The notes under the pieces are model-generated. The model did no database searches. It had not been told where the DNA came from and saw nothing but the letters and a program-made list of their open reading frames with translations. A stretch of DNA of 64,000 bases from Escherichia phage 172-1: sequence record NC_028903.1; one strand, 5' to 3'. This document shows, piece after piece, positions 2,865 through 52,213 of the stretch. Within the stretch, counting starts at the first letter, position 1. The number at the start of each line of letters is the position of its first letter. The translations under genes and the position numbers were made by a program.

Positions 2865-3182
2865 CTATTTATAACTTACACCATCACCTTTTACAGCTAT
2901 TGTAAGTGGCGATCTGGTGTTTAATGGGGTGAAGTTCATGTCCAGCTCATATCCCACTTTGAGAATCAATTTCAACAATGTGTCGATGGAGAACTTTGAA
3001 AGCTGTCCATTCATGAGGCTACTAATCCTCGGCTGGCTAACACCTAGCTTCTCTGCGGCAACACACTGCGACCAACCTTGATCACGAATTAACTTCGTAA
3101 GAATAATGATCAGCTTGGACTTCAATGAAAGCATGTTGGCCTCTACAGGGTCTGTACTTATCAGCTCGAACGGGTTTTTCAT
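2865..3182 (-). CDS. XRE-family HTH protein resembling HigA-type antitoxin
   Basis: 105 aa; HTH core AAEKLGVSQPRISSLMNGQ followed by FSIDTLLKLI; ATG at 3180-3182. Confidence 0.6.
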   Translation of the reverse strand: MKNPFELISTDPVEANMLSLKSKLIIILTKLIRDQGWSQCVAAEKLGVSQPRISSLMNGQLSKFSIDTLLKLILKVGYELDMNFTPLNTRSPLTIAVKGDGVSYK

Positions 3183-3206: not shown

Positions 3207-3232
3207 AAAAAAGCCCCAGCCGTAGCCGGGGC
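3207..3232 (-). terminator. rho-independent terminator-like hairpin
   Basis: GCCCC-a-GC / GC-c-GGGGC stem preceded on plus strand by A6, giving a T6 tail on the minus transcript. Confidence 0.45.
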
Positions 3233-3381: not shown

Positions 3382-3403
3382 AAAAAGCCGCTCAAAGGCG
3401 GCT
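3382..3403 (-). terminator. rho-independent terminator
   Basis: AGCCGC / GCGGCT stem with 6 nt loop, U-run on minus transcript; follows gene 3484..3927. Confidence 0.5.
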
Positions 3404-3483: not shown

Positions 3484-3927
3484 CTACTTAACCCTTGCCT
3501 CTTTGATGGGGTCAATGTATTTCTCAACGCCCCACTTGTGTTTACTGTCTGCGTAGAAAACATCAGGCGCACACTGGCTACTTTTAGGGAATGCTTGAGG
3601 GTCTTTCGTGCTACCTTTAAACTTCTGCTTACCACGGGTGCGACCATTACAGAAGATTTCTAACTTCTTCTCCTCTTCTGTTTTAGCTCCCCCGCTCTTT
3701 AATAAAGAACGTTTATGATCGGCTAACAATAACGCATCAGCACGATGAACGCGATGGCCTACACGCTTTGCCACACTAGAAGGAATATGAGATTCAGCCT
3801 CAGCCTTTGCAGCACGACGTTTTAAACTGCGCTTACTGACGTGATTGGTTGCCTTTGGCTTCTCTTTCTCCAGTTCAGAGATAGAAAAACAACGCCCGCC
3901 TTTCATGCTGATTTTTGATTTAGCCAT
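3484..3927 (-). CDS. basic hypothetical protein
   Basis: 147 aa, K/R-rich; no recognisable domain. Confidence 0.45.
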   Translation of the reverse strand: MAKSKISMKGGRCFSISELEKEKPKATNHVSKRSLKRRAAKAEAESHIPSSVAKRVGHRVHRADALLLADHKRSLLKSGGAKTEEEKKLEIFCNGRTRGKQKFKGSTKDPQAFPKSSQCAPDVFYADSKHKWGVEKYIDPIKEARVK

Positions 3928-4695: not shown

Positions 4696-4729
4696 TAAAA
4701 GAAAAGGCGCTACCCGTTAAGATAGCGCC
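4696..4729 (-). terminator. rho-independent terminator
   Basis: GGCGCTA / TAGCGCC stem, 10 nt loop, UUUUCUUUU tail on minus transcript; follows 4754..5653. Confidence 0.55.
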
Positions 4730-4753
4730 TCATGTTTATTATAATCGTATTAC

Positions 4754-5653
4754 TTATACTGCCTGACGTGCCGCCATAATCTCAGCTGCCTTGCGCAATA
4801 CTTCTTCCTCTTCTTCTTTCGCAGCTTGTTCGGTACGGGTAGCAACCGTTGAAGAGATACGACCGCGCAGACTTTCTAACTTCTCCTGAATAGCCGCAAT
4901 AGTCTTTTCCATTTCATCAGCGTATGAATCGAGCGATTCCAGCTCCTTGCTTGATGCGTTCATCAGATAATCGTCTGAGATCGCTACCGTTGAGGCCGTG
5001 ACTTTCTTGATGAGTGAATCAAAGGACTTTTTAACCTTGCCCACGTCTTCACTCAAGGCAATAGTGTTATCACTGGTAGCGCCATTGCGCTCATCAGCCA
5101 GCAATTTGGCTTCAATACGGATTGCATTCAAGCGTTCAACTAAAGAGTAAATATCCTGATTAAAATCTTCCTTATTTTTCGCCGGGATTTGAAGGTGGGC
5201 CGCCACGTTGTCATTGCAACCTTTGAAGAAGTTAGGATTATCGACTTCAATTTCACGGCCTAAAGCAAAGTTTTCGAAAGCATTTGACCAGCGAGCGCGG
5301 TTTTGTTCCATTTTGGCCTTAATTTGCGCTTCTTTCGCATCTTCTTTCGCTTTCGCTTCACCTTCCAGATTAATCCACTTTTTACGCCCATTTGCCGCAT
5401 CGGTGTTGAACTTGATAGGAGTTAAGAAAGTAATTGCAGTGGCGATCACGTCCATATCGCGGAAACGTTCGGTTAACAGAAAATCAACTGCCGACTGCAA
5501 TACGTCCAGCTTTTTACCGTTACTGCGGAAGTGCTGCAAGTGCCCTAACAGAAAATTAGAAACATCCTGTTTAATCGCCGCGTTATTGCTGCGGATATTG
5601 TTAGCCAGTGCGTTAAAGCCAGATTCTTTTACCAGATTGAAAATTTTAGCCAT
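4754..5653 (-). CDS. first early protein after leader (function unknown)
   Basis: 300 aa; ATG at 5651-5653 with GGTGA RBS; helical, charged C-terminus. Confidence 0.55.
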   Translation of the reverse strand: MAKIFNLVKESGFNALANNIRSNNAAIKQDVSNFLLGHLQHFRSNGKKLDVLQSAVDFLLTERFRDMDVIATAITFLTPIKFNTDAANGRKKWINLEGEAKAKEDAKEAQIKAKMEQNRARWSNAFENFALGREIEVDNPNFFKGCNDNVAAHLQIPAKNKEDFNQDIYSLVERLNAIRIEAKLLADERNGATSDNTIALSEDVGKVKKSFDSLIKKVTASTVAISDDYLMNASSKELESLDSYADEMEKTIAAIQEKLESLRGRISSTVATRTEQAAKEEEEEVLRKAAEIMAARQAV

Positions 5654-5754
5654 GATATTCACCTTTCAATTGTAAGGGCACTATGCCCCGCTCTCTATGA
5701 GCTTTTTAAGTCGCCATTGACTTATCAATAAACACTCATCATTAAGTAATTATT

Positions 5755-5802
5755 GATAAGCGGGGCGGTCTTATCAGGAGTTAACCTTGCCGCCCCCTTA
5801 TC
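5755..5802 (-). other. long stable hairpin in early leader (candidate RNase III or regulatory site)
   Basis: GATAAG-c-GGGGCGG pairs with CCGCCCC-CTTATC, 13 bp stem with one bulge, 21 nt loop, ~100 nt upstream of first early ORF. Confidence 0.4.
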
Positions 5803-6473
5803 CGTGATGTTTCATCTGGTATCTTTAATTAGTCGCTATAAACGAAGCCGACCTGATAGCGATGATCAATCATCACAATAAGGCAGTGCGTCCGACTCTA
5901 TTTAATTACATTGCTGTAACCGTCGGCAATATCGTTTATTATACTTTCGCTCTCGCTTATCCTTTATATCAGCTCTCAATCGCTAGTCATCGCCCACTAC
6001 GGGATACTGTTGCGAAAAAGTCACTAACCGCCTAACATTCCGGCGTTTTATATCTTTCGGCGAGTTTACTACATAAACCGACTATGTACTTTCATCATAA
6101 GACGAATCTCAAGCCGTTCGCATCGTAAACGTTCACACTAAACCTTATTGTTAAATAGCAATTTGCTACCCTTTAACCACCCCCCGCCGCTCTCAATTGA
6201 GCGTTAATTCGTCGGGCTTGTCTGCCCTGATTAGCTTTTTCACTGTAGCACCGTGTTAGCGATGGCCGCCGCTACCCTTAACCGTGGGCGATTAGCTTAA
6301 ACCGTTGCGTGTACTCAATGAGTCCGCTTATCAGTGGTGACGTTTCCAGTTAAGGGATTGTAAAACTGTTTACCCTGATGTTTTAGGGAGTTTTACGCCG
6401 TTTTATCTGGTATGCTTTCCGATGGTTATTATCTTCCAGCATATTTAACCGATATATGGGGACGTTTAAATTA

Positions 6474-6484
6474 TTAAAGAGCGG
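6474..6484 (-). promoter_or_regulatory. boxA-like element (CCGCTCTTTAATAAT on minus transcript)
   Basis: Matches rrn/lambda boxA core GCTCTTTAA. Confidence 0.45.
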
Positions 6485-6572
6485 TAAATCTGTCAGTGTG
6501 CTTTCTCACACTACGCAACTGTTAGCCGTTGTTACGCTTTTCACTGAAGCGGTGTTTTGCTTGAGTGTGCTC

Positions 6573-6601
6573 ATTATGGACCATGATGTTTTCGCTGTCA
6601 A
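6573..6601 (-). promoter_or_regulatory. sigma70-type early promoter P3 (TTGACA-N17-CATAAT)
   Basis: -35 at 6596-6601, -10 at 6573-6578 read on minus strand. Confidence 0.6.
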
Positions 6602-6706
6602 TCGCTTTTTTAATCTTTTTCGTCGTTCCCTTTATTGGGAGGATATATCAATCAGCTTTATTTGATTGAAGATTAAGCGATAAGGCTTAACTCATGATTC
6701 ATATTG

Positions 6707-6717
6707 TTAAAGAGCGG
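6707..6717 (-). promoter_or_regulatory. boxA-like element (CCGCTCTTTAACAAT)
   Basis: Near-identical to E. coli rrn boxA GCTCTTTAACAA. Confidence 0.5.
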
Positions 6718-6834
6718 TTACTACATTCACAGCTTAACACGTCGTGTTAGCTTGTCAAACTCTTTTTATCATCTTCTTTTATTCTTTTCCCTTATCTCGC
6801 GTGAATCTATGCGAAAGGGCAAGATGATAAATTT

Positions 6835-6845
6835 TTAAAGAGCGG
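6835..6845 (-). promoter_or_regulatory. boxA-like element (CCGCTCTTTAAAAAT)
   Basis: ~25-40 nt downstream of P2 start site. Confidence 0.45.
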
Positions 6846-6876
6846 GGATGTTTCACGTCATCGCTGACTTGTGCTC

Positions 6877-6904
6877 ATTATAGGTTAGGCTTTCCAGTTG
6901 TCAA
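6877..6904 (-). promoter_or_regulatory. sigma70-type early promoter P2 (TTGACA-N16-TATAAT)
   Basis: Perfect consensus hexamers; -35 at 6899-6904, -10 at 6877-6882 on minus strand. Confidence 0.7.
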
Positions 6905-6943
6905 ATACTTTTTCAAGTATTTTTTCACTTTCTAGCCTGATTT

Positions 6944-6953
6944 TTAAAGAGCG
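6944..6953 (-). promoter_or_regulatory. boxA-like element (CGCTCTTTAAAAA)
   Basis: Inside repeat copy A. Confidence 0.4.
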
Positions 6954-7092
6954 TTTAAAGCTGTATGGCTCCCATAACACCATTTGATAATCAGATAACC
7001 TGCGATTATTCCGGGGAATGGTATCCGCCTGCCTGCGTCTGACTTGCTTCACTCACTAGGGAGTTACTTGAGCGGTCATCTTGTCTTTCTAA

Positions 7093-7173
7093 GCTCATTA
7101 TAGTTCAGGCTTTCCGGCTGTCAAATACTTTTTCAAGTATTTTTTCACTTTCTAGCCTGATTTTTAAAGAGCG
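7093..7173 (-). repeat. ~81 bp direct repeat copy B (promoter P1 plus AT hairpin plus boxA)
   Basis: Near-identical to 6873..6953. Confidence 0.8.
7097..7124 (-). promoter_or_regulatory. sigma70-type early promoter P1 (TTGACA-N16-TATAAT)
   Basis: Perfect consensus hexamers; -35 at 7119-7124, -10 at 7097-7102 on minus strand. Confidence 0.7.
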
Positions 7174-7174
7174 G
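7164..7174 (-). promoter_or_regulatory. boxA-like element (CCCCGCTCTTTAAAAA)
   Basis: Inside repeat copy B. Confidence 0.4.
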
Positions 7175-7293
7175 GGCAAGTTTCCTTGCCTTGTATGTTT
7201 TACATCGTACCCGATACAAATCAGTATACGCCAGCTTTCACGAAGTGCAATAGGGTAAGGCAAATTATTTTAAACTTTTTCACTATAGGAAGA

Positions 7294-7305
7294 TAAAAGA
7301 GCGGG
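7294..7305 (-). promoter_or_regulatory. boxA-like element variant (CCCGCTCTTTTA)
   Basis: Sixth copy of the AGAGCGG core in the same orientation. Confidence 0.35.
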
Positions 7306-7411
7306 CGCACGTGATACATCAAAGGAAACGGCTTGCATTGCAACAATAGGCGGCCTAAAACGCACTATAGCGAGCTAAAAGGGAGTAAGGTATACAATCA
7401 CCTTATAAAAG

Positions 7412-7436
7412 AAAAAAGCCTCATGGCGAGGCTTTT
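7412..7436 (-). terminator. rho-independent terminator (weaker on plus strand)
   Basis: GCCTC / GAGGC stem, A6 upstream and T4 downstream on plus; ends the 8855..7511 operon. Confidence 0.6.
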
Positions 7437-7510
7437 AGGGAGGTTTTAAAGCATCAGATAGATTATGACCATAGGCATGACCACGGCACAATAAAGGAGA
7501 AAGATCAAGC

Positions 7511-7876
7511 CTATGGATTTACACATTGACCATTACCGGACTCAATTTCATTCATGGACTCATCAAAGAGCGTCAACGATGAGCGCATCAAGTGATTGAC
7601 CGTGATTTGTTTACCAGTGATTTCATTTACCAGTAAAATAGTTTTACTATCTGATTGCACATGATCAAAATCATTTACATGCAAAATAATAACCTTAGGT
7701 GACTTTTTACCGGTTTCATAGTTTTCTATAAGGTAGGTACATTGCAAGCCGTCAACCGTAGCAGGGGAAAACGTTGCAGCCTTAACGCTACCCATAGCCG
7801 ATAACAGCACACCTAACAGAAGAATGACCAGAAAAAAGCCTACAACCGTTTTAATGACGAATCTAATAAACCACAT
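7511..7876 (-). CDS. secreted early protein (signal peptide)
   Basis: 121 aa; N-terminal hydrophobic segment followed by AxA-like cleavage region. Confidence 0.5.
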   Translation of the reverse strand: MWFIRFVIKTVVGFFLVILLLGVLLSAMGSVKAATFSPATVDGLQCTYLIENYETGKKSPKVIILHVNDFDHVQSDSKTILLVNEITGKQITVNHLMRSSLTLFDESMNEIESGNGQCVNP

Positions 7877-8069
7877 AACAATAAACCTCTTTAATTAGTT
7901 TAAGAATATCGAAAGCGGCAACAATCAATAAATAGTTTAAAGAAACGAAGCCAATGACAAACAAAAACAGAAAGAACACAACCGGACACCTAAAAAACGT
8001 AAGAATAAAGCATATCAGCGACGAACAACGCCACTGCAACAACGAATAAGCAACGCAAAAAATAATCAT
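7863..8069 (-). CDS. small membrane protein
   Basis: 68 aa, strongly hydrophobic. Confidence 0.35.
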   Translation of the reverse strand: MIIFCVAYSLLQWRCSSLICFILTFFRCPVVFFLFLFVIGFVSLNYLLIVAAFDILKLIKEVYCYVVY

Positions 8070-8082
8070 GAATCATTTTTTG

Positions 8083-8334
8083 TCACCATTTTGGCAGATC
8101 ACAATCAAGAAGACCAGCAAGCGACAAATCACCGTCAACATAGATCGAACGAAAATCATCGCGATTAATATCAATGCGCACCAATTGGAGCCATCTTTTG
8201 GCCTCGTTAAAACTCATGGAACAAAAGGCAACGGTAGGCAGTATTACGCTACCTTCTTTCAAGCCGAACGAGATAAAAGTATCACAAACAAAACAAGAAA
8301 CACCGCTGGATAATTTGATCACTTTGTTACTCAT
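8083..8334 (-). CDS. hypothetical protein
   Basis: 83 aa ORF in operon. Confidence 0.4.
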   Translation of the reverse strand: MSNKVIKLSSGVSCFVCDTFISFGLKEGSVILPTVAFCSMSFNEAKRWLQLVRIDINRDDFRSIYVDGDLSLAGLLDCDLPKW

Positions 8335-51475: not shown

Positions 51476-52213
51476 TTAAGCTTTCTTTTCCATTGCTTTA
51501 ACAATAGCTTTACAGAAACCAGAACGAACAATGTCATCTGATTCGCCGTCTACAATCTCAGCGAACTCATACAGATCATGTTCATCAATAAAGTTAGTAG
51601 CCCAAGTAAGACCACTCTCACGACCACGCATATCATGCTGGTTAGTGTCACCCATGCAGAACAATTGAGAGGTTTCTCCCAATCGAGTCATGATTGAGAA
51701 GGCTTCATCTTTAGTGGTGTTCTGGAACTCATCTACGATAACAATAGCATCGTTGAAAGAACGACCACGGAGATACTCCAGAGGTACGAACTCAATATTA
51801 CTGTTACCGAGCTGGCATTCATAGAACCCTTTACCATATCGCTGAGTAATAACATCAATGATAGGCATCAAATATGGTTCAAACTTCTCACGCATCCCTC
51901 CCGGAAGCAACCCAAGAGAATTACCCATGCCGACCGAAGGGCGACTCAGGATAATCTTCTGAATCTTACCACTCTTCAGTGCATCGATAACCGTGGAAGT
52001 GATTACAAAGGTCTTACCACAGCCCGCAGGAGCGTCTGTGAACACAACTTGTTTAGTCTTGATAGCATTGAGCAGTTCAGACTGGAACTGGTTCTGAGGG
52101 ACTACAGGCTTTGCTAAAACCACCTCTTCAAACTCGCGCTTACCCTTACGAGTGACAAGTACTTCCCGACGAAGGTCTTTCCGTGATTCTTTCCGTGATT
52201 GACGACGACTCAT
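51476..52213 (-). CDS. phoH: PhoH-like ATPase
   Basis: 245 aa; Walker A PAGCGKTF, IVDEFQN, and GDTNQ motifs. Confidence 0.8.
   Translation of the reverse strand: MSRRQSRKESRKDLRREVLVTRKGKREFEEVVLAKPVVPQNQFQSELLNAIKTKQVVFTDAPAGCGKTFVITSTVIDALKSGKIQKIILSRPSVGMGNSLGLLPGGMREKFEPYLMPIIDVITQRYGKGFYECQLGNSNIEFVPLEYLRGRSFNDAIVIVDEFQNTTKDEAFSIMTRLGETSQLFCMGDTNQHDMRGRESGLTWATNFIDEHDLYEFAEIVDGESDDIVRSGFCKAIVKAMEKKA

What the first reader, a model, noticed from the sequence alone, without database searches (positions are those of the whole stretch)
6474..7305. Six rrn-type boxA-like elements in the early leader: candidate Nus-dependent antitermination
The motif TTAAAGAGCGG occurs six times on the plus strand (6474, 6707, 6835, 6944, 7164, 7294), so the leftward early transcripts carry CCGCUCUUUAA(C/A/U)AAU. 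The copy at 6707 reads CCGCTCTTTAACAAT, essentially the E. coli rrn boxA (GCTCTTTAACAA) and close to lambda nut boxA (CGCTCTTA). They are interleaved with the three tandem strong promoters. This points to processive antitermination on early transcripts using host NusB/NusE, without an obvious N-like protein or boxB hairpin.
Basis: partly seen in the sequence, partly recalled or inferred. Interest (0 to 1): 0.65.

Follow-up and report, generated by a model that had tools for sequence, protein, structure and literature searches.

The report
Host-type boxA antitermination signals, phage leader
The early leader of this phiEco32-like coliphage carries five perfect copies of the host ribosomal-RNA 'boxA' signal, one after each strong early promoter and ahead of an ~830-base structured non-coding RNA. 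The phage therefore very probably borrows the cell's rRNA anti-termination machinery, as phage T7 is known to do.

Summary
The motif cluster is real. There are four exact and two one-mismatch copies at the stated coordinates. Five of the six match the published functional gamma-proteobacterial boxA consensus GYTCTTTAANA. The window holds 7 matches against 0.57 expected, and five lie in sense orientation within 700 nt. The sixth copy (7294-7304) fails the consensus.

The window is a Kuravirus (phiEco32/NJ01-like). In 15 isolate genomes and 5 metagenome contigs of that phage group, every leader keeps 3-5 copies, even where the flanks are unrelated. Free positions coincide with the degenerate positions of the consensus. 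Each predicted sigma-70 promoter has a boxA 19-152 nt downstream of its estimated start.

Stable hairpins lie 5' of boxA, the rrn boxB-boxA order and not the lambda order. One of them shows compensatory changes. No N-like protein was found.

Downstream lies an ~830-nt untranslated, strand-specifically structured, covarying RNA with no Rfam match. Intrinsic terminators follow it.

The best reading is N-independent, NusB/NusE-nucleated antitermination of host RNA polymerase, as in rrn operons and the T7 early leader, where boxA function is published. No held paper links boxA to phiEco32. The function is inferred, not shown. I rate it a new member of a known kind, with an unexpected rrn-operon-like layout.

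The parts
7414..7436 (-). Intrinsic terminator ending the upstream leftward operon (genes 8855-7511). It marks the start of the non-coding early leader.
   Evidence: 10-bp stem followed by TTCTTTTATA. SU10 and SU7 records annotate a terminator at the equivalent place.
7294..7304 (-). Degenerate boxA-like copy, CCGCUCUUUUA. Probably not a NusB/NusE site.
   Evidence: It fails GYTCTTTAANA at positions 8 and 11 (not among the matches). Relatives that have it keep the same degenerate form (NJ01, IMG/VR contig).
7175..7190 (-). Hairpin GGCAAG-GAAA-CUUGCC directly 5' of a boxA.
   Evidence: -9.7 kcal/mol. LAMP and Bas93 have GGCAA-GAAA-UUGCC and L028 has GCAAG-GAAA-CUUGC.
7162..7172 (-). boxA copy 1, GCUCUUUAAAA.
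   Evidence: perfect consensus match. It is part of the 81-nt repeat.
7097..7124 (-). Early promoter P1: TTGACA, 16-nt spacer, TATAAT.
   Evidence: 12/12. SU10 and phiEco32 papers report three sigma-70 promoters in this spacer (PMC4281155, PMC8948821).
6942..6952 (-). boxA copy 2, GCUCUUUAAAA, about 139 nt downstream of the estimated P1 start.
6877..6904 (-). Early promoter P2: TTGACA, 16-nt spacer, TATAAT.
   Evidence: 12/12. It is the second copy of the 81-nt module.
6833..6843 (-). boxA copy 3, GCUCUUUAAAAAUUUAUCA, about 28 nt downstream of the estimated P2 start.
   Evidence: It is 18/19 identical to the rrn leader boxA plus spacer.
6705..6715 (-). boxA copy 4, CCGCUCUUUAACAAU. It follows a candidate extended -10 promoter (TTGACA 6758-6753, 16-nt spacer, TAAGCT 6736-6731).
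   Evidence: The promoter was read and was not called by the scan. Four unrelated 5' flanks in relatives join the same motif.
6573..6601 (-). Early promoter P3: TTGACA, 17-nt spacer, CATAAT.
   Evidence: 11/12. It is conserved in all relatives.
6495..6512 (-). Conserved boxB-like hairpin AGUGUG-AGAAAG-CACACU, 10 nt 5' of boxA copy 5. A second small hairpin lies at 6531-6516.
   Evidence: Alignment A1. Three of 6 pairs show compensatory double changes (UA/CG/AU/GC at one pair). 99% of cells are paired, against 18-37% when the partners are slid.
6472..6482 (-). boxA copy 5, CCGCUCUUUAAUAAU, about 85 nt downstream of the estimated P3 start and at the 5' edge of the structured leader RNA.
   Evidence: It is invariant in all 20 relatives.
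5654..6484 (-). About 830 nt of untranslated, conserved, highly structured leader RNA between the last boxA and the start codon of the gp124 homolog.
   Evidence: Alignment A2. RNAalifold gives 232 pairs, 67 with compensatory changes. 98.5% of cells are paired against 34-48% slid, and 67 pairs change on both sides against 7-12 slid. G.U cells number 348 against 18 A.C. Consensus energy is -221.6 kcal/mol on the sense strand and -146.0 on the antisense. Stops are dense in all frames. There is no Rfam or tRNA hit.
4754..5653 (-). First early gene, the homolog of phiEco32 gp124, function unknown.
   Evidence: phrog_13018, unknown function.
4704..4731 (-). Strong intrinsic terminator right after the first early gene. 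It is a candidate target of read-through.
   Evidence: 12-bp stem followed by TTCTTTTATC. SU7 annotates a terminator at the equivalent place. Only a weak promoter-like sequence follows it.

Best explanation
The five consensus copies are RNA boxA elements of the host ribosomal (rrn) type. Each strong sigma-70 early promoter transcribes, within its first 19-152 nt, a small hairpin and then a boxA.

Inferred mechanism: the nascent boxA is bound by host NusB-NusE (S10). With NusA, NusG and probably SuhB/S4, this converts host RNA polymerase into a termination-resistant elongation complex without any phage N protein.

That complex would protect transcription through the 0.9-1.5 kb untranslated, highly structured leader, which would otherwise be a Rho target. 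It probably also helps polymerase pass the intrinsic terminators that follow (4731-4704 and others) into the long early gene cluster.

Shown here: motif identity, orientation, position, conservation, the hairpin and leader covariation, and the lack of an N-like gene. Inferred from known systems (rrn, T7, CRISPR leaders): Nus factor binding and terminator or Rho read-through.
For: 1. Five perfect GYTCTTTAANA matches lie within 700 nt on the transcribed strand. The window holds 7 against 0.57 expected (consensus from PMC5725501).
2. Similarity to the E. coli rrn leader extends over 18-19 nt, boxA plus spacer. The rrn sequence was confirmed in 5426/5426 genomes. The alignment score is about 7 sd above shuffles.
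3. In 15 relatives there are 65 copies (49 unique contexts). Outside the searched 9-mer, positions 11-12 are invariant AA, position 13 is U in 44/49, position -1 is C in 40/49, and position 10 is free. This mirrors the consensus. A divergent metagenome relative uses GUUCUUUAACA, which the consensus allows at position 2.
4. Flanks are replaced by unrelated sequence while the motif stays.
5. Every predicted promoter has a boxA 19-152 nt downstream of its estimated start. No sense-strand boxA occurs elsewhere in the 64 kb. The two other matches are antisense to genes, and the 3694 copy is broken in relatives.
6. Hairpins are enriched 5' of boxA (60% at or below -5 kcal/mol against 21% background) and not 3' (3%). 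This is the rrn boxB-boxA order. One hairpin covaries.
7. A long untranslated structured RNA lies downstream. Rho terminates untranslated RNA, and boxA protects rRNA and CRISPR arrays (PMC7665894).
8. T7 has GCUCUUUAACA between A3 and gene 0.3, and that boxA is a published functional antitermination element (PMC3709561).
9. rrn-type boxA binds NusB:NusE at about 8 nM, against micromolar for lambda nut (PMC2800207). This makes N-independent loading plausible.
10. Intrinsic terminators lie downstream, with no strong promoter after the first one.
Against: - There is no experimental evidence for Nus binding or read-through in this phage group.
- Transcription starts were estimated from promoter consensus only. 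The mapped phiEco32 starts (Pavlova 2012) could not be read.
- From my own knowledge, rrn-type complexes act mainly against Rho and only weakly against intrinsic terminators, so the terminator read-through part is less secure.
- The leader is not markedly C-rich or G-poor, so no obvious rut site was seen.
- Predicted accessibility of boxA is only modestly above background (0.55 against 0.46).
- RNAalifold can pair copy 5 with the gp124 ribosome-binding region.
- The related phage 7-11, which is said to need antitermination, has no boxA in its right-end 10 kb.
Confidence: 0.68

Rival explanations
1. The elements do bind NusB/NusE, but their main role is not read-through. One version: the very abundant multi-boxA leader RNA titrates NusB/NusE/SuhB away from host rrn operons and contributes to host shut-off. 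Another version: the tethered Nus complex acts chiefly as a co-transcriptional folding chaperone for the structured leader RNA, or as a translational regulator of the gp124 homolog, as at suhB.
For: - Transcripts from the upstream promoters carry up to five high-affinity-type sites, and the promoters match the consensus.
- The downstream RNA is large and highly structured.
- Nus complexes are described as RNA chaperones (PMC8632103) and repress suhB translation (PMC5725501).
- RNAalifold pairs boxA copy 5 with the gp124 Shine-Dalgarno region.
Against: - One boxA per promoter is enough to explain the copy number.
- The boxA-SD helix is invariant, so it has no covariation support.
- boxA copy 5 lies 820 nt from the start codon, whereas the suhB-type search used sites within 50 nt of the start codon (PMC5725501).
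- These roles do not exclude antitermination.
Confidence: 0.12
2. These are lambda-like nut sites. The hairpins next to boxA are boxB equivalents bound by an unrecognised phage-encoded N-like protein, and that protein, not Nus factors alone, gives processive antitermination.
For: - Hairpins with purine-rich, GAA-containing loops (GAAA, AGAAAG, AACGAA, AGGAAGA) accompany most copies, and one covaries.
- Intrinsic terminators lie downstream. From my own knowledge, N-type complexes pass such terminators better than rrn-type ones.
- Many small early proteins of unknown function exist, and about 13 kb of the genome is outside the window.
Against: - The hairpins lie 5' of boxA, not 3' as in nut sites.
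- Hairpin sequences and loops differ between copies, so they do not form one protein-binding consensus.
- The boxA is the high-affinity rrn type (UUU), not the weak lambda type.
- No antiterminator family appeared in the first ten early proteins.
- The only Arg-rich ORF in the leader has an in-frame stop in Bas93.
Confidence: 0.1
3. The motif is a DNA site for a phage or host DNA-binding protein that regulates the tandem promoters, for example the early HTH protein at 2865-3182 or a nucleoid protein. The likeness to boxA would then be coincidental.
For: - Two copies sit at a fixed distance (about 50 bp) upstream of the -35 hexamers of P1 and P2, inside an 81-nt repeat.
- An HTH_37/Xre-type protein is encoded in the early operon.
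Against: - The motif is asymmetric and always in one orientation.
- Spacing to the next promoter varies (50, 50, 88, 116 bp, and none for copy 5).
- The pattern of fixed and free positions reproduces the RNA boxA consensus, including N at position 10 and Y at position 2.
- 18-19 nt are identical to the rrn leader.
- RNA-level covariation lies immediately beside it.
- The same element sits in the T7 leader, where it acts as an antiterminator (PMC3709561).
Confidence: 0.06
4. The copies are non-functional passengers. They would be remnants of duplicated promoter modules or of a captured piece of host rrn leader, kept by recent common descent.
For: - Two copies belong to a 95% identical 81-nt duplication.
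- The relatives are fairly close (75-94% identity).
Against: - The three other copies have unrelated flanks.
- The motif is untouched in 65 copies while neighbouring bases and whole flanks change.
- Degenerate copies (7294, 6159) show what decay looks like.
- rrn similarity is limited to boxA plus spacer, with no boxB or boxC sequence.
Confidence: 0.03

Closest known systems
Phage T7 early-leader boxA (downstream of host-RNAP promoters A1-A3)
   Same: - It is a virulent coliphage with three tandem very strong sigma-70 early promoters.
- An rrn-type boxA (GCUCUUUAACA at T7 nt 813) lies in an untranslated leader before the first gene.
- It has no N protein.
- The element is reported to give antiterminated host-RNAP transcription (PMC3709561 citing Savalia 2010).
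- The phage later shuts off host RNAP with its own inhibitor: Gp2 in T7, gp79 in phiEco32 (PMC8948821, PMC12276001).
   Different: - T7 has one boxA shared by three promoters. Here each promoter has its own hairpin-boxA module (five copies).
- The T7 leader is about 0.4 kb. Here it is 0.9-1.5 kb and contains an ~830-nt covarying structured RNA.
- Function is shown genetically for T7 and not for this phage group.
E. coli rrn operon leader (boxB-boxA-boxC) and the rrn antitermination complex (NusA/B/E/G, SuhB, S4)
   Same: - Both have tandem strong promoters, then a hairpin 5' of boxA, then a long structured untranslated RNA.
- The boxA has identical sequence, and 18-19 nt are identical including the 3' spacer UUUAUC(A).
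- Loading is expected to be N-independent.
   Different: - No sequence similarity to rrn boxB or boxC was found.
- There are five copies within 700 nt.
- The RNA product is unknown, and protein-coding early genes follow.
Lambda nutL/nutR sites with N protein
   Same: - A boxA RNA lies in the leader of phage early transcripts.
- Host Nus factors are recruited for processive antitermination.
   Different: - Lambda boxA is the weak CGCUCUUA type, with micromolar affinity (PMC2800207).
- In lambda the boxB hairpin is 3' of boxA and binds N.
- Here boxA is the rrn type, the hairpins are 5', and no N-like gene was found.
boxA upstream of CRISPR arrays (Stringer et al. 2020, PMC7665894) and in the suhB 5' UTR (Baniulyte et al. 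2017, PMC5725501)
   Same: - A consensus boxA is placed ahead of a long untranslated RNA and protects it from Rho (CRISPR arrays).
- The same GYTCTTTAANA consensus was used to recognise those sites.
   Different: - Those are single-copy cellular loci. Here the elements are viral, multi-copy and paired with very strong promoters.
- The suhB element represses translation close to the start codon, which is not the geometry here.

Membership tests
rrn-type boxA (NusB-NusE binding RNA element) | Sequence matches the functional gamma-proteobacterial consensus GYTCTTTAANA. | tested here: met
   Five of the six copies match perfectly (consensus from PMC5725501). The 7294 copy does not.
rrn-type boxA (NusB-NusE binding RNA element) | Lies in the transcribed strand downstream of a promoter. 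| tested here: met
   All copies are in sense orientation, 19-152 nt after the estimated starts of consensus promoters in the window and in 14 relatives. Promoters in this spacer are reported for phiEco32 and SU10 (PMC8948821, PMC4281155). Exact mapped starts could not be read.
rrn-type boxA (NusB-NusE binding RNA element) | Selective conservation of the motif, with variation only at positions the consensus leaves free. | tested here: met
   65 copies in 49 unique contexts. Positions 11-12 are invariant, position 10 is free, and position 2 is C or U. Flanks are exchanged.
rrn-type boxA (NusB-NusE binding RNA element) | The element is presented single-stranded. | tested here: inconclusive
   Mean unpaired probability is 0.55, against 0.46 for background 11-mers. 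RNAalifold can pair copy 5 with the SD region.
rrn-type boxA (NusB-NusE binding RNA element) | Binds NusB-NusE and recruits SuhB, NusA and NusG. | not testable with these tools
   Needs binding assays or ChIP.
rrn-type boxA (NusB-NusE binding RNA element) | Confers Nus-dependent resistance to Rho or terminators. | not testable with these tools
   Needs reporters or transcriptomics in nus mutant hosts. Supporting context only: an untranslated 0.9-1.5 kb leader and downstream terminators.
Lambda-type nut site | A boxB hairpin lies 3' of boxA after a short spacer. | tested here: not met
   There is no hairpin enrichment in the 30 nt 3' of boxA (3% at or below -5 kcal/mol against 21% background). 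The hairpins are 5' (60%).
Lambda-type nut site | A phage-encoded N-like arginine-rich antiterminator. | tested here: not met
   No antiterminator family appeared in ten early proteins. Arg-rich candidates were rejected. Caveat: about 13 kb of the genome is outside the window, and small ARM proteins are hard to recognise.
T7-type early-leader boxA | Tandem strong host-RNAP early promoters followed by a consensus boxA in an untranslated leader before the first early gene. | tested here: met
   T7 was compared directly.
T7-type early-leader boxA | boxA mutations change the extent of host-RNAP transcription or the phage phenotype. | not testable with these tools
   Published for T7 only (PMC3709561 citing Savalia 2010).

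The most novel reading that the evidence does not exclude
The whole early leader is a viral imitation of a ribosomal RNA operon. It has tandem consensus promoters, hairpin-boxA loading modules, and an ~830-nt conserved, intricately folded non-coding RNA of a class absent from Rfam. On this reading, synthesis and folding of that RNA depend on the host rrn antitermination/chaperone complex. The mass production of multi-boxA RNA would at the same time drain NusB/NusE/SuhB from host rrn operons.
Probability: 0.25. Interest if true: 0.85.

Novelty: new member of a known kind. Interest (0 to 1): 0.6.

Why it matters
phiEco32-like phages are a model for sigma-factor replacement, but how their early transcripts stay processive has not been explained. 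Host polymerase must cross a kilobase of untranslated RNA, several terminators and tens of kilobases of early genes. The group that studies them states that antitermination in the related phage 7-11 'remains to be defined' (PMC8948821).

A host-type boxA after every early promoter gives a concrete and cheaply testable answer for the Kuravirus group. It also suggests that hijacking the N-independent rrn antitermination machinery is common among virulent enterobacterial phages, since the same element is present in T7-like and T5-like genomes.

It predicts host dependencies (nusB, nusE, suhB) that matter for phage therapy strains. The promoter-hairpin-boxA units could also serve as compact parts for building long untranslated transcripts.

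The structured leader RNA found alongside is an uncharacterised large phage RNA that deserves its own study.

Tried and rejected
- **Rfam and tRNA.** An Rfam scan of 5400-7700 at E<=5 gave only sub-threshold noise. There are no tRNA or tmRNA genes.
- **Key papers.** Pavlova 2012, Savalia 2008 and Savalia 2010 are not held. Mapped transcription starts, and any mention of boxA there, could not be checked. No held paper contains both 'boxA' and 'phiEco32'. The four held papers with 'phiEco32' and 'antiterminat*' do not describe it.
- **More relatives from IMG/VR.** A search with the gp124 homolog gave only 5 loci, mostly known isolates.
- **Phage 7-11.** There is no boxA within one mismatch in the leader at its right end, so the element does not extend to that family.
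- **N-like protein.** The Arg-rich ORF 6885-7052 (annotated 'cathepsin L-like' in NJ01) was rejected because it has an in-frame stop in Bas93 and no SD. The Arg-rich N-terminus at 51476-52213 belongs to a PhoH-like protein.
- **rrn boxB or boxC similarity.** None was found beyond boxA plus spacer.
- **Rho loading site.** The C/G ratio along the leader shows only modest C>G patches and is not decisive.
- **boxA accessibility.** The effect is modest.
- **Consensus matches outside the leader.** The matches at 3694 (+) and 13104 (-) are antisense to coding genes. The 3694 copy is CGCTCTGTAA in phiEco32, SU10 and EP335. Both were judged chance.
- **Wasted search.** One broad literature search was poorly specified and returned nothing useful.
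Full report
**What the window is.** The region 5800-8200 is 94.6% identical to Escherichia phage NJ01. It matches about 96 phiEco32-like genomes (Gordonclarkvirinae: Kuravirus, Suseptimavirus, Nieuwekanaalvirus). The finding lies in a ~1.85-kb stretch without credible ORFs. This stretch sits between the gp125 homolog (7511-7876, - strand) and the gp124 homolog (4754-5653, - strand). Published work places three of the four sigma-70 early promoters of phiEco32 and SU10 in exactly this spacer. They transcribe leftward into an early cluster of more than 50 genes (PMC8948821, PMC4281155).

**Checking the observation.** All six sites exist at the stated coordinates. Four are exact, and 6944 and 7294 each differ by one base. 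Up to one mismatch gives 7 matches in the window against 0.84 expected.

The published functional boxA consensus for gamma-proteobacteria is GYTCTTTAANA (Baniulyte et al. 2017, PMC5725501). On the leftward transcript, five of the six copies match it perfectly (7172, 6952, 6843, 6715, 6482). The window holds 7 matches against 0.57 expected. The two matches outside the leader are antisense to coding genes, and the one at 3694 is broken in relatives. The copy at 7294 reads GCUCUUUUAUC and fails.

Three near-perfect sigma-70 promoters are interleaved on the - strand (7124-7097, 6904-6877, 6601-6573). Two of them lie inside a duplicated 81-nt module made of boxA, an A/T-rich tract and the core promoter.

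**Likeness to the host element.** The rrn leader sequence was confirmed in all 5426 complete E. coli genomes, at a median of 7 places per genome. Local alignment of that leader to phage leaders finds 18-19 nt of identity covering boxA and its 3' spacer. The window copy at 6843 is GCTCTTTAAAAATTTATCA (18/19), and SU7 has GCTCTTTAACAATTTATC (18/18). The scores are about 7 sd above shuffles. Nothing resembling rrn boxB or boxC sequence was found.

**Comparative test.** I fetched the leader from 14 isolate genomes spanning three genera and from five metagenome contigs.

- Every leader has 3-5 sense-strand copies, 65 exact core copies in 49 unique contexts.
- Outside the searched 9-mer, positions 11-12 are invariant AA, position 13 is U in 44/49 and position -1 is C in 40/49.
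- Position 10 is free (A28/C12/U9), and it is the N of the consensus.
- The most divergent contig (L028) has UGCUCUUUAAAAA and GUUCUUUAACA. The latter uses the other base that the consensus allows at position 2.
- At one slot, four unrelated 5' flanks are joined to the same motif.
- Every promoter predicted in any of these leaders has a boxA 19-152 nt downstream of its estimated start.

This pattern is what selection on the RNA boxA predicts. It is hard to reconcile with a passenger sequence or an arbitrary DNA operator.

**Hairpins.** In fact, the 30 nt 5' of boxA copies are enriched for stable hairpins (60% at or below -5 kcal/mol against 21% of leader 30-mers). The 30 nt 3' of boxA are not (3%).

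The hairpin 10 nt upstream of the promoter-distal copy (6512-6495, AGUGUG-AGAAAG-CACACU) has compensatory double changes at 3 of 6 pairs. It is 99% paired, against 18-37% in slid controls.

The order hairpin-then-boxA is that of the rrn leader, where boxB ends 2 nt before boxA. It is not the lambda nut order. The hairpins differ in sequence between slots, so they do not look like one protein's binding site.

**Search for a phage antiterminator.** The first ten proteins on either side of the leader hit no antiterminator family. One is an Xre-type HTH protein. An Arg-rich 55-codon ORF inside the leader (6885-7052) has an in-frame stop in Bas93 and lacks a ribosome-binding site. Another Arg-rich N-terminus belongs to a PhoH-like protein. 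About 13 kb of the genome lies outside the window, so this negative result is not complete.

**What lies downstream.** The ~830 nt between the last boxA and the gp124 start codon (6484-5654) are 85% conserved and full of stop codons.

- RNAalifold predicts 232 pairs, 67 with compensatory changes.
- 98.5% of cells are paired, against 34-48% when partners are slid.
- 67 pairs change on both sides, against 7-12 when slid, and no shuffle reaches the observed values.
- G.U pairs outnumber A.C by 348 to 18.
- The consensus fold is -221.6 kcal/mol on the transcribed strand and -146.0 on the other. It is therefore an RNA structure of the leftward transcript.
- Rfam has no match.

Strong intrinsic terminators follow in the early operon (4731-4704 right after gp124, then 3403-3386 and 3232-3213). 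Only a weak promoter-like sequence follows the first one.

**Mechanism.** Rho terminates untranslated transcripts, and boxA-nucleated Nus complexes protect rRNA and CRISPR arrays from it (PMC7665894). rrn-type boxA binds NusB:NusE about 100-fold or more tighter than lambda nut boxA (8 nM against micromolar, PMC2800207), so no N protein is needed for loading.

I therefore infer that each early promoter makes a transcript whose hairpin-boxA module loads NusB/NusE, together with NusA/G/SuhB, onto host RNA polymerase. This lets polymerase traverse the long structured leader. It probably also helps polymerase pass the terminators into the early genes.

The strongest external support is phage T7. 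It has GCUCUUUAACA between promoter A3 and gene 0.3. [quoted passage not shown] 2010). phiEco32 likewise encodes an inhibitor of sigma-70 transcription, gp79 (PMC8948821, PMC12276001).

A search of phage genomes with the rrn leader also found the element near the left end of T7-like Klebsiella and Citrobacter phages. It also found it in the terminal repeat of a T5-like phage. The strategy therefore looks widespread.

**Limits.**

- Nothing here shows Nus binding or read-through.
- Transcription starts are estimated from promoter consensus.
- rrn-type complexes are, to my knowledge, poor at intrinsic terminators.
- The leader has no clear C-rich Rho loading site.
- Predicted accessibility of boxA is only slightly above background.
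- Phage 7-11 lacks the element.

The rivals, with my estimates, are a Nus-factor sponge, chaperone or translational role (0.12), an N-like protein using the hairpins (0.10), a DNA operator (0.06) and non-functional passengers (0.03).

**Novelty.** No held paper links boxA with phiEco32, but the primary phiEco32 papers could not be read. The element is a new member of a known kind, namely host-type boxA antitermination as in rrn and T7.

What is unusual is the architecture. There is one hairpin-boxA module per promoter, five copies in 700 nt, placed in front of a large covarying RNA of unknown function. The overall layout resembles an rrn operon.

Noticed in passing
window 5654-6484 (- strand): An ~830-nt conserved untranslated leader RNA with a very strong covariation signal: 232 predicted pairs, 67 of them compensatory. 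The structure is strand-specific and has no Rfam match. It may be a new large phage non-coding RNA, or an elaborate 5' UTR of the gp124 homolog.
   Followed up: partly
window 6472-6482 with 5662-5672 (- strand): RNAalifold pairs the promoter-distal boxA (GCUCUUUAA) with AAUUGAAAGGU at the ribosome-binding site of the gp124 homolog. This helix would close the whole structured leader. All eight pairs are invariant or change on one side only, so covariation neither supports nor refutes it.
   Followed up: partly
window 6149-6159 (- strand): A seventh boxA-like sequence, UGCUAUUUAACAAUA, with A instead of C at position 4. It is conserved in all relatives but embedded in predicted helices of the leader RNA, so it is probably a structural element and not a NusB/NusE site.
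   Followed up: partly
window 7313-7321 (- strand): TGATGTATC lies just upstream of the degenerate boxA at 7304. It matches 7 of 9 positions of the phage sigma (gp36) promoter element tAATGTAtA. It might be a middle or late promoter reading into the leader.
   Followed up: no
window 6873-6953 and 7093-7173: A 95% identical 81-nt direct repeat. Each copy comprises boxA, an A/T-rich UP-like tract and a consensus core promoter, so a whole promoter module has been duplicated. Across relatives, unrelated 5' flanks abut the invariant boxA. This suggests modules are exchanged at or near the motif.
   Followed up: partly
window 4704-4731, 3386-3403, 3213-3232 (- strand): Three strong intrinsic-terminator-like hairpins lie inside the early operon. 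The first comes directly after the first early gene.
   Followed up: partly
window 2865-3182 (- strand): An early 105-aa protein with an HTH_37/Xre-type DNA-binding domain (Pfam E = 9.5e-17). It is a candidate early transcription regulator.
   Followed up: no
window 6885-7052, 7511-7876, 8083-8334 (- strand); L001 and L002 annotations: Public records name these small ORFs 'cathepsin L-like cysteine proteinase A', 'terminase' and 'polymerase'. The first is almost certainly non-coding, because it lies inside the leader and has an in-frame stop in Bas93. The 'terminase' and 'polymerase' names on the 121-aa and 83-aa proteins look like propagated misannotations.
   Followed up: partly
L011 (T7) nt 813; L023 (Klebsiella phage P07) nt 678; L022 (T5-like IME260) locus 1505 and 1993: Perfect GCTCTTTAANA boxA elements occur in the early leaders or terminal repeat of T7-like and T5-like phages. 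They are unannotated in those records. Host-type boxA seems common in virulent enterobacterial phages.
   Followed up: partly
L021 (Salmonella phage 7-11, right-end 10 kb): No boxA within one mismatch occurs downstream of the 7-11 early promoters, although its authors infer that antitermination must occur there. That phage must use another mechanism. A 'Q-like antitermination protein' (gp136) is annotated there.
   Followed up: no
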